From contig NC_090326.1 of the NCBI RefSeq assembly GCF_035084215.1, positions 93,372,001-93,436,000 of the forward strand: DNA of 64,000 bases, written 5' to 3'. This document shows positions 30,901 to 32,675 of the stretch, piece by piece. Position 1 is the first letter of the stretch; the number at the start of each line of letters is the position of its first letter. The DNA is from Heptranchias perlo. Lineage: Eukaryota. The notes below the pieces were generated by a model, which did no database searches, had not been told where the DNA came from, and saw only the letters and a program-made list of their open reading frames with translations. Made by a program: the position numbers and the translations under genes.

Positions 30901-32675
30901 TTAGGGTTGCTTTTAACAGTCAGTTGGGCTAAATTTATTACTGTTTGTGTAAAAATATACACAGTTCTTATAAATGCAAATACTCAAAAGAATAGCCAAT
31001 TCAAGAATTCTGGAAAAGGAAATAGAAAACCTAGGGTCACACAGAGTGACCGACTACAGCGTTACAAAATCACAGATGGACTAAAAAATATAGTAAAAGA
31101 TTACCATGTCCATAAAATGCCATCTGAGAGCTGTGACATCTACGGGTATTAAAGCAAGTGATAGGTGAGACTAAAATCCATGTGCGTGACTCCAAGATCA
31201 CCAAAAAGGAAAAACTAAAATAGTATTAATTTGAAAAGTTCCTGGATCACCTGACAATTTTTGGATGTTTTCACATTTTTTCAATGCAAGGTTCAAGTCA
31301 TATTCACAGTTGTTATTGTCATTCGAAGTTTAGGAGAAAATCTTGGTTACAAGTGGGTTCTGTACATAGTGTTATTTTAGTCGAATTCTTGGAAGTTAGT
31401 GGTGTGTAATAATTTGGTACAAATGCTTACTTAACATAGTCGCACCAAATTCCCCTTGCTATTTTAGCACATTTAAATCATTTATTTTTAACAGGTTGGC
31501 GGCTGTTAAAATAGCACAGAGGAATTTGGTGTGTGAGCATTCATGAGAACAGCACATCATCATTTTTACCCTGTAGTGTAAAACAATATATGCTACCAAT
31601 CTTGAAGATATAATTGAATTGCTTAGCTTAATATTGGTTGCTCTCTGAAGACTTTGCACGTGGGAACTGTGCCAGACAATCTGAAGGTGGATCCGAAGAC
31701 TGGAGTTGTGTGGATTGGTTGCTGTCCCATTCTCTGGAAATTATTATTCTACAATCCTGAAAATCCCCCAGGTTCTGAGGTTTGTCACTTAAATGTTCAG
31801 AAAAAATTGCAACTCTTACTGATTTACTGTGTGTGTGTGTGTAGCTTTATACTTTCAGCTTGTTTGAGATTGCAGATCAGTTTTTCTGGACATGTTGAGT
31901 TTTTAAATTAATTTTAAAAAATGTTTGTAATTAATCAGCTGCTGGACTTATTGAACTGTTCAGCATGATGGGCACTTTTTGTTTATAGTTGAATGCCTGC
32001 TAACTTAGCTTGTAAATATTAAAGTAAAACTTGTGCCATGCCAAGAACATACAAACTTTTGAAGTTGCAAAGTATAGATCTATCCTGATTGTCTTAGTTT
32101 CAAAAAATTTGTAAGTGTTTAAACAAAATCTAGGGGATGATATTGGCACAAGTGTGCAATCATTGAAATGGAAGAGGTTGTGTTGTATCCCAAATGTATA
32201 TCTGCATTTGTTTTTAAACTTTTTTCAAATCTGAGCCTTTTATGAGAAAAATGCAGACATGGCATTGTGACTTTTCATCTATGGGGAAGGAGGTTTAAAT
32301 ATAGCTTCTGTGTAAACCTAATTATTTTAAACTAACATTAGACTGAAGAAAACAATATGAACTTGAATTCAGATTAAAATTGGAAAGGCCACTTACTTAA
32401 GGTAGGCTCATGTCATCACTGGAAAAATAGGCATTTGTTTCAGTTGGCTAGAGTGCTTTATTTTGATAGATCAACTATCAAGTTACATTGGATCAGTAAG
32501 CATGTCTCTCTTTACACACAGGTAATCAGAATCTAAGGACCCAAAAGTGACCCAAATGTATGTGAACAATGGCTCTGTTCTCCAAGGCTCATCAGTTGCC
32601 ACAGTTTATGAAGAAAAACTGCTTATAGGCACAATCTTCCACAAAGCTCTTTACTGTGAGCTTAGTGGTTCATAA
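6838..32675 (+). CDS. PON2: Paraoxonase/arylesterase (PON2-like) gene, coding exons 2-9; possible pseudogene because of a frameshift in the last exon; exon 1 not located
   Basis: Eight exons with AG acceptors (GT donors on exons 2-8). Exons 2-8 (71, 56, 166, 127, 201, 82, 129 nt) match human PON2 sizes and phases. They splice to [31 protein letters not shown]...FNPHG...VVNH...DHY...ANGI...PDNL...PPGSE, and the terminal exon encodes ...[12 protein letters not shown]...LLIGT...ALYCEL. Orthology to PON1/2/3 is not resolvable by eye. Confidence 0.95.
7204..8493 (+). mobile_element. Young 5'-truncated non-LTR retrotransposon (family A, CR1-group RT) with open RT C-terminal ORF and polyA tail
   Basis: 386-aa uninterrupted ORF ([27 protein letters not shown]), 3' UTR and A19 tail. 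Confidence 0.95.
9196..9251 (+). CDS. PON2: PON exon 3 ([19 protein letters not shown])
   Basis: ttccag|AG...TCT|gtgagt; 56 nt; GSED motif with Ca ligands E53/D54. Confidence 0.95.
10326..10418. repeat. (CTAT)n/(AT)n compound microsatellite
   Basis: Directly visible. Confidence 0.9.
11215..12905 (+). mobile_element. Internally deleted PIF/Harbinger element with a degenerate Myb/SANT-like first exon (11444-11689)
   Basis: [25 protein letters not shown]...W..VAEEV...RFNDL, with an upstream TATTTAAA. Degenerate TIRs gggcccgatattaggaggg / ccatcctaaaattaacccc. Homologous to 55807-59697. Confidence 0.8.
12930..13095 (+). CDS. PON2: PON exon 4 ([23 protein letters not shown]...[12 protein letters not shown])
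   Basis: ttttaag|GGC...GAAG|gtaagt; 166 nt; NPHG with the catalytic H115 equivalent. Confidence 0.95.
14760..15040 (-). mobile_element. Deu-domain SINE (SacSINE1-like) with L2-type tail
   Basis: Reverse complement reads ctcaggtggatataaaagatcccatggcactattcaaagaagagcagg...tatccctcaaccaac. Confidence 0.7.
15699..16480. mobile_element. Fold-back Penelope-type non-autonomous element with inverted hammerhead ribozyme motifs and a 10-bp TSD
   Basis: Long inverted arms (15699-15960 vs ~16140-16428), attacattag flanking at 15689 and 16481, and CTGATGA...GAAA at 16362-16386. Confidence 0.75.
17031..17157 (+). CDS. PON2: PON exon 5 ([11 protein letters not shown]...[14 protein letters not shown])
   Basis: tttctag|AT...CAG|gtacat; 127 nt; VVNH with the H134 equivalent. 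Confidence 0.95.
17340..18480 (-). mobile_element. Old CR1 LINE fragment
   Basis: Degenerate RT motifs (reverse complement NYRPISLTS and [12 protein letters not shown]). Confidence 0.7.
18540..19980 (-). mobile_element. Old L2 LINE fragment
   Basis: Minus-strand PFKTAVITH and GVS.GSILGP motifs; purine-rich plus strand typical of shark L2. Confidence 0.7.
20379..21385 (+). mobile_element. Young 5'-truncated LINE family A copy, near-identical to 7478-8484
   Basis: Open 283-aa ORF, the same 3' UTR and a polyA tail. Confidence 0.95.
21748..21948 (+). CDS. PON2: PON exon 6 ([21 protein letters not shown]...[29 protein letters not shown])
   Basis: cttccag|C...AG|gtgagt; 201 nt. Confidence 0.95.
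23195..23610 (+). mobile_element. Deu-domain tRNA SINE (SacSINE1-like)
   Basis: tRNA-like head (tggcttagcagtagc...gtgggttcaggccc), Deu core and L2-like tail. Confidence 0.7.
24795..25181 (-). mobile_element. SINE-like element with tRNA head joined directly to the LINE family A tail
   Basis: Same family as 1115-1533. Confidence 0.7.
26808..27545 (-). mobile_element. CR1 LINE 3' end
   Basis: 193-aa ORF ([13 protein letters not shown]...WSPYLRKD...[14 protein letters not shown]) and CR1-type tail. Confidence 0.9.
28885..28966 (+). CDS. PON2: PON exon 7 ([27 protein letters not shown])
   Basis: tttcag|A...AAG|gtaaga; 82 nt. Confidence 0.93.
29740..30820 (-). mobile_element. L2 LINE 3' fragment
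   Basis: Reverse complement contains [12 protein letters not shown] and [10 protein letters not shown]; similar to 18540-19500. Confidence 0.7.
31651..31779 (+). CDS. PON2: PON exon 8 ([26 protein letters not shown]...NPPGSE)
   Basis: ctctgaag|ACT...GAG|gtttgt; 129 nt; DN Ca ligands (D269/N270). Confidence 0.95.
32522..32675 (+). pseudogene. PON2: PON exon 9, frameshifted: VIRI* (TAA at 32534-32536); the conserved C-terminus [46 protein letters not shown] continues in the +1 frame to 32675
   Basis: cacag|GTA ATC AGA ATC TAA. The expected Q-N-I-x-S segment is missing except for 1 nt, and PON homology resumes at 32535 in a different frame. Confidence 0.85.

What the first reader, a model, noticed from the sequence alone, without database searches (positions are those of the whole stretch)
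32522..32675. Paraoxonase last exon has a frameshifting ~14-nt deletion giving an immediate stop: candidate PON loss in a cartilaginous fish
Seen: from the canonical acceptor (cacag|32522) the exon reads GTA ATC AGA ATC TAA, while the highly conserved C-terminus ([12 protein letters not shown]...[14 protein letters not shown]) is intact but one base out of frame. Known: PONs are six-bladed beta-propellers closed by a C42-C353 disulfide, so losing about 50 C-terminal residues should abolish folding; PON1 has been convergently inactivated in marine mammals. Inference: a recent loss-of-function allele or young pseudogene. The shifted tail has no further lesions and all upstream exons and splice sites are intact.
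Basis: partly seen in the sequence, partly recalled or inferred. Interest (0 to 1): 0.8.

Follow-up and report, generated by a model that had tools for sequence, protein, structure and literature searches.

The report
Sevengill shark's only paraoxonase is dead
The sharpnose sevengill shark's only paraoxonase gene (an antioxidant and detoxifying enzyme) is still spliced into RNA but carries two frameshifts, one at each end, so it likely makes no working enzyme, which would leave this shark with no paraoxonase at all, whereas marine mammals lose one of three copies (beavers two).

Summary
The exon-9 frameshift is real. Four of four DNA runs hold the stretch as one unchanged contig, and four of four RNA-type runs splice into the canonical acceptor with no insertion. 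The genome is Heptranchias perlo. This is the only PON locus found, in the ancestral PDK-PON-neurabin position.

Exon 1 lies 1.5 kb upstream of the window and has a second frameshift: 67 nt against the expected 74, giving a stop at codon 20. Asp169, invariant in 28 of 28 other PONs, is Gly. Changes at invariant sites are enriched, 7 of 89 against 12 of 642 in other sharks (p=0.005), but 5 of the 7 cluster in exon 6, so the pseudogene is probably young.

Verdict: a transcribed unitary pseudogene, an ordinary mechanism. The notable part is probable loss of the whole PON family in a vertebrate; seven literature searches found no report. Untested: reads over exon 1, fixation in the species, state in other cow sharks, cause.

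The parts
1..6837 (+). Intron 1 (part inside the window). Exon 1 lies just outside, 1413-1479 bases before the window start (G000:C2:93370521-93370587; locus L003): 67 nt from ATG to donor instead of 74, a frameshift with a stop at codon 20; a dispersed repeat ends 20 nt before its ATG
   Evidence: 25 residues up to the exon 1/2 junction residue in 10 of 12 shark rows. Exon 1 not checked with reads
6838..6908 (+). Exon 2 (holds Cys42), intact, no Met in frame
9196..9251 (+). Exon 3 (Glu53, Asp54), intact
12930..13095 (+). Exon 4 (His115), open; private S118N
17031..17157 (+). Exon 5 (His134), open; private P135M gives the first in-frame Met after exon 1
21748..21948 (+). Exon 6, open; cluster of five changes at invariant columns (V167L, D169G, Y179F, A180V, N182I; PON1 numbering) at 21749-21796
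28885..28966 (+). Exon 7, intact; spliced to exon 8 in 4 of 4 RNA-type runs
31651..31779 (+). Exon 8 (Asp269, Asn270), open; spliced to the 32522 acceptor in 4 of 4 RNA-type runs
32522..32536 (+). Start of exon 9 with the 14-nt deletion and the premature TAA (32534-32536)
32538..32675 (+). Out-of-frame former C-terminus (four predicted strands, Cys353, original stop); one private change (Val to Met)
32676..33324 (+). 3' UTR as covered by deep RNA-type contigs (end approximate; contigs reach 33323-33645); G/A difference at 32782
   Evidence: tables 3 and 8; contigs cannot show a transcript end

Best explanation
The single PON gene of Heptranchias perlo is spliced normally but carries frameshifts in exon 1 and exon 9, so it is likely a transcribed unitary pseudogene that yields no active paraoxonase. 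Shown: both frameshifts in the assembly, the exon-9 one also in read-derived contigs; canonical splicing of exons 6-9; no second PON locus found. Inferred: ribosomes starting at the normal AUG stop after 19 residues. A restart at the next in-frame Met (residue 134) would give a 173-residue piece with no membrane anchor, no Glu53/Asp54/His115, Gly for Asp169, and none of the last four strands or Cys353, which cannot close the six-bladed propeller. The RNA likely persists because a stop in the last exon and a stop close to the start codon both tend to escape nonsense-mediated decay (recalled rule, not tested). Likely history: selection on the enzyme lapsed on the sevengill lineage, one frameshift fixed, and the second followed neutrally. 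The order cannot be told. Neutral divergence since loss is roughly 0.01-0.035 per site, which suggests millions to a few tens of millions of years (weak). Relaxed selection is more likely than adaptive loss; no cause was tested.
For: Exon-9 deletion in 4 of 4 DNA contigs, and no insertion row in 4 of 4 RNA-type runs. Exon 1 is 67 nt and ends in a stop at codon 20; no Met in the anchor's frame upstream back to the previous stop. The only single-intron join that reproduces the RefSeq model's 5' extension uses a TA acceptor, and the extension lies in a zf-RVT-like retroelement tail and a dispersed repeat; that model still ends at the premature stop. One locus only: plus tblastn and an HMM over 444 kb. 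Synteny PDK(+), PON(+), neurabin PDZ(-). Asp169 in 28 of 28 other rows, Gly here. Private changes at invariant columns 7 of 89 against 12 of 642 in seven other sharks, Fisher p=0.005; invariant-to-variable ratio p=0.04. Lost elements on the model of the intact sawshark ortholog: strands 315-322, 330-336, 339-344, 350-353 (TM 0.93 to PON1). Replacing C42 and C353 inactivates PON1, and D169 is listed as involved in activity (PMC7766523, passages).
Against: All eight runs carry one sample label, so fixation in the species is not shown. Exon 1 was not checked with reads. Contigs drop variants, so a heterozygous intact allele is unlikely but not excluded. No RNA record has 31 letters on both sides of the deletion point (table 8). 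Outside exon 6 the gene is no more decayed than working orthologs: 2 of the 7 invariant-site changes, one private change in the shifted tail, no in-frame nonsense codon, all splice sites intact. The five catalytic-calcium ligands and the His115/His134 pair are kept. Contig ends at 31772 and 32546 in X7 and X8 hint at minor alternative splicing, unresolved. Genome searches score only the best candidates, and the assembly may be incomplete.
Confidence: 0.85

Rival explanations
1. A null haplotype still segregates in the species; this animal is homozygous for it, other sevengills have a working gene.
For: One sample label for all runs. Little decay outside exon 6.
Against: The haplotype carries two independent frameshifts plus D169G, which takes time under no selection. 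A G/A difference at 32782 (A in X8, G in X6, X7 and the DNA runs, a contig break in X5) shows two haplotypes near the deletion, with no intact exon-9 form seen in 8 of 8 runs (phase not known).
Confidence: 0.08
2. The gene still yields a useful product through minor splice forms or another start, perhaps a non-catalytic protein; the exon-6 cluster marks a change of role rather than decay.
For: Spliced RNA persists. In-frame joins around exon 8/9 exist on paper, for example donor 31771 to acceptor 32548, or 31779 to 32538, and contig ends at 31772 and 32546 fit some alternative splicing. The clustering of 5 of 7 changes in 16 codons is not uniform decay (permutation p about 0.0009, window chosen after seeing the data). 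The tail has only one private change.
Against: The listed, best-supported joint is the frameshifting one in 4 of 4 runs (26 weaker joints were not shown). The in-frame joins at the two plausible donors delete all or most of strand 301-307. A product would also have to get round the exon-1 frameshift, where only weak GC or non-consensus GT donors restore frame and they cut the anchor helix.
Confidence: 0.05
3. Assembly error: one or both deletions are artefacts.
Against: Exon 9: 4 of 4 DNA runs identical over 2201 bases, and RNA-type contigs show no gap or insertion there. Neither site is a homopolymer run. An error in exon 1 alone would not rescue the gene.
Confidence: 0.02

Closest known systems
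Pon1 (and beaver Pon3) pseudogenes of aquatic mammals (Graham et al. 2023, PMC10202596, passages read; Meyer et al. 2018 known only as cited there)
   Same: Frameshift inactivation of a paraoxonase gene in a marine vertebrate; candidate for relaxed or reversed selection.
   Different: Those mammals keep Pon2, whose expression was unchanged in pinnipeds, beavers and cetaceans; here the only PON is hit. There the best-supported correlate is diving (not significant), which does not apply to a gill-breather. There a fall in expression comes first; here spliced RNA is still well represented, but contig depth cannot measure expression level.
[quoted passage not shown] 2023, PMC9937041; abstract, section 5 and passages read; supplement not read)
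   Same: No working PON gene left in the genome.
   Different: Those are ancient invertebrate losses inferred from absence; this is a vertebrate case with the dead gene still in place. 'shark' and 'chondrichth' occur 0 times in that paper's main text.
Elasmobranch PON2-like orthologs (e.g. Pristiophorus japonicus P0003, 82% identical) and PON1 structures 1V04, 3SRG, 9R0Q
   Same: Same exon layout as far as the protein alignment shows, most active-site residues; the intact sawshark ortholog folds as PON1 (TM 0.93).
   Different: Frameshifts in exons 1 and 9, D169G and N182I occur only in Heptranchias among the rows aligned.

Membership tests
Paraoxonase (PON) gene family | Arylesterase domain PF01731 | tested here: met
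   95.3 bits against cut-off 21.3 for P0001; genome match in exon 6
Paraoxonase (PON) gene family | Nine exons and the PDK4-ASB4-PON-PPP1R9A neighbourhood (gene order recalled) | tested here: met
   Nine exons with GT-AG introns; PDK family at 93.26-93.28 Mb (+) and neurabin PDZ at 93.607 Mb (-) on C2. ASB4 itself was not looked for
Active PON enzyme | Open frame from the N-terminal anchor to Cys353, closing the six-bladed propeller | tested here: not met
   Stop at codon 20 and stop after residue 306
Active PON enzyme | Catalytic calcium ligands E53, N168, N224, D269, N270 and the H115/H134 pair encoded | tested here: met
   All kept in the read-through (residue list from PMC7766523)
Active PON enzyme | Asp169 (involved in activity; structural-calcium ligand, the latter recalled) | tested here: not met
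   Gly here, Asp in 28 of 28 other rows
Active PON enzyme | Calcium-dependent lactonase/arylesterase activity | not testable with these tools
   needs an assay
Unitary pseudogene | Inactivating lesions at the orthologous locus | tested here: met
   two frameshifts; exon 9 confirmed in read-derived contigs
Unitary pseudogene | No working paralog in the genome | tested here: met
   one locus; searches are lower bounds on one assembly
Unitary pseudogene | Lesions fixed in the species | not testable with these tools
   all runs carry one sample label
Unitary pseudogene | Neutral evolution (dN/dS near 1) | tested here: inconclusive
   no DNA of relatives on hand; protein-level excess at invariant sites p=0.005 but concentrated in exon 6

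The most novel reading that the evidence does not exclude
First vertebrate lineage with no paraoxonase at all: the loss is fixed, shared with other deep-water cow sharks, came after a stepwise remodelling of the active site (His285 gone in all elasmobranchs sampled, then the exon-6 cluster), and has recurred in other sharks such as the white shark, whose PON is annotated as two pieces. That would give a gill-breathing test set for why PON is lost in the sea, independent of breath-hold diving.
Probability: 0.2. Interest if true: 0.72.

Novelty: new member of a known kind. Interest (0 to 1): 0.5.

Why it matters
The native substrate of paraoxonases and the reason they are repeatedly lost in aquatic mammals are open questions (PMC9937041, PMC10202596). 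In those mammals Pon2 survives. A vertebrate whose only PON is dead shows the family is dispensable there, and it breaks the link with breath-hold diving, so low oxygen, cold or low metabolic rate, diet and simple relaxation can be compared across sharks. It also predicts no PON-type lactonase or organophosphate-hydrolysing activity in this species. Practically, the RefSeq model XP_067852084.1 presents this broken gene as a 397-residue protein. The limits: one gene in one species, and gene loss by frameshift is a common process.

Tried and rejected
His285 to Cys looked like a lesion but is shared: 18 of 18 elasmobranch rows covering the site lack His. Asn-to-Asp after Gly-Ile in exon 6 also occurs in batoids. 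A search for shorter PON proteins named no hexanchiform or squaliform sequence among 20 hits, so the loss could not be placed on the cow-shark tree. No run of another species was listed as holding the stretch, and no RNA holder is listed on record; the four 'RNA?' runs were taken as RNA because they join exons at GT-AG ends. dN/dS was not computed: no relatives' DNA. Changes were not assigned to branches; private residues per column were counted instead, which undercounts for species with close sisters, hence the one-per-lineage set (17 of 25 rows; Carcharodon, Ambystoma, Papio and Camelus rows were left out of both counts, and the first 29 columns were skipped). Dating with the epaulette-shark pedigree rate of 7e-10 per generation (PMC10587355, passages) gives 14-50 million generations, too long for the lineage (Hexanchiformes split at 115-190 Mya, PMC3780621, passages), so it was rejected and the age is left rough. 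One search used exon 3 boundaries one base off; corrected. Earlier notes of this scan: nothing near, nothing by words, five unrelated notes in the genome. The truncated protein was not folded, since a model cannot show stability.

Full report
Observation. From the acceptor at 32520-32521, exon 9 reads four codons and stops at 32534-32536. The conserved tail is open in another frame up to 32675. Other PONs have ten residues from the first Val to the Asp-Pro (27 of 28 rows, the 28th ending earlier), which is 30 nt against 16 here, so 14 nt are missing.

Is it real? Four of four DNA runs hold 31400-33600 in one contig with no other letter or gap. They may be the source of the assembly, so they test the assembler and not a second animal. 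Four runs guessed to be RNA join exon 7 to 8 and exon 8 to the 32522 acceptor at GT-AG ends, in 4 of 4, and show no insertion at the deletion point. No RNA record has 31 letters on both sides of that point, and contigs drop variants, so this shows presence of the deleted form and only makes an intact allele unlikely. A G/A difference at 32782 shows two haplotypes nearby.

Organism and gene. Exon 4 matches XP_067852084.1 of Heptranchias perlo at 100%, on a contig of the same length as C2. That model ends at the premature stop. Exons 2-9 lie in the window and all eight introns are GT-AG. Searches of the genome with the tail, the Arylesterase family, a sawshark PON, a distant unnamed PON and the exon-9 DNA return only this locus. 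tblastn with five PONs and an HMM over 444 kb around it find no decayed copy. A PDK-family gene lies upstream on the same strand and a neurabin PDZ domain downstream on the other, the arrangement I recall for the human PON cluster.

Second lesion. Exon 1 lies at G000:C2:93370521-93370587, 1.5 kb before the window. From an ATG in strong context to the donor there are 67 nt, where exon 2 needs 2 modulo 3. Sharks have 25 residues up to the junction residue, or 74 nt, in 10 of 12 rows (Stegostoma shows 24 because my trim cut its Met; the Heterodontus model starts in exon 2). Translation stops at codon 20. The signal-anchor sequence is still readable in the shifted frame, which has no Met back to the previous stop. 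RefSeq gets round this with a 5' extension lying in a zf-RVT-like retroelement tail (below the Pfam cut-off, E 5e-5) and a dispersed repeat; the only single-intron join that reproduces it uses a TA acceptor. I could not lay reads on exon 1.

Selection. With one sequence per lineage, Heptranchias has 7 private changes at 89 otherwise invariant columns, against 12 of 642 in seven other sharks (Fisher p=0.005; invariant-to-variable ratio p=0.04). Its terminal branch is 0.111 against 0.070 for the sawshark. Asp169 is Gly here and Asp in 28 of 28 other rows; Asn182 is Ile. Against a long decay: five of the seven sit in 16 codons of exon 6 (permutation p about 0.0009, window chosen afterwards). Outside that cluster there are two, as in working orthologs. 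The shifted tail has one private change, and there is no nonsense codon or broken splice site. Neutral divergence since loss is 0.034 per site with all seven (95% 0.014-0.070) and about 0.010 without the cluster (0.001-0.035). I read this as a young pseudogene, not a fresh allele; the age in years is weakly constrained.

What the products would be. The intact sawshark ortholog folds with mean pLDDT 93.9 and matches PON1 at TM 0.93. The exon-9 stop removes 51 of 357 residues: the end of strand 301-307, strands 315-322, 330-336, 339-344 and 350-353, and the cysteine of the closing disulfide. Replacing those cysteines inactivates PON1, and D169 is among the residues involved in activity (PMC7766523, passages). 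With the exon-1 frameshift the expected product is a 19-residue peptide. A restart at Met134 would give 173 residues without anchor, Glu53, Asp54 or His115 (inferred). Persistence of the RNA fits escape from nonsense-mediated decay by last-exon and start-proximal stops (recalled). In-frame rescue joins exist on paper and two runs hint at minor isoforms, but they remove or replace a core strand and the exon-1 lesion would remain.

Comparison. It works like the Pon1 pseudogenes of aquatic mammals, but those keep Pon2, and the best, non-significant correlate there is diving (PMC10202596, passages). Whole-family loss is described for several invertebrate groups and parasites; no vertebrate is named for it in the abstract or section 5 of PMC9937041, and sharks are not mentioned in its main text (supplement not read). 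Searches listed no paper on PON loss in a shark. I saw listings only, one search listed 15 of 505, and the library lacks most subscription journals.

Verdict. A real, doubly frameshifted, still transcribed, single-copy PON: a unitary pseudogene with confidence 0.85. The mechanism is ordinary; the probable whole-family loss in a gill-breathing vertebrate is the part a specialist would want. Interest 0.5.

Noticed in passing
window 31651-31779 (exon 8) and orthologs: His285 of PON1 is absent in 18 of 18 elasmobranch rows covering it (Cys in 17, Ser in 1), while both chimaera-type rows and 7 of 8 other vertebrate rows keep His; batoids also often lose Cys284. An elasmobranch-wide change near the active site.
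   Followed up: partly
P0004 and P0150 (white shark, XP_041040498.1 and XP_041040691.1): White shark PON is annotated as two pieces, 232 and 110 residues, breaking at the exon 6/7 boundary on a contig of one length, while basking shark is whole. Second loss or assembly fault.
   Followed up: no
P0139, P0011 (Heterodontus francisci): Both horn shark models lack exon 1, and carry N113V and N324D at otherwise invariant columns. Lesion or annotation gap.
   Followed up: no
window 21749-21796: Five of seven changes at invariant columns fall within 16 codons around Asn168 and Asp183; more clustered than uniform decay predicts. Unexplained.
   Followed up: partly
L003, about 8355-8501 (1499-1645 bases before the window start): A dispersed repeat, best copy 94.6% identical with 23 further hits in 444 kb, ends 20 nt before the PON start codon; a decayed retroelement tail, a DDE transposase fragment and an RT fragment lie within 6 kb further upstream. 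Whether the repeat is in the 5' UTR or in relatives is unknown.
   Followed up: partly
   Followed up: partly
window 32782: G/A difference in the 3' UTR: A in X8, G in X6, X7 and the DNA runs, contig break in X5. A heterozygous site or more than one animal under one label.
   Followed up: no
G000:C8:73763295-73763459: One strictosidine-synthase-family match, probably APMAP (name recalled), a distant propeller relative; its integrity was not checked.
   Followed up: no
G000:C1795:38527-42168: PDK-family matches with several stops on an unplaced contig, possibly a decayed copy.
   Followed up: no
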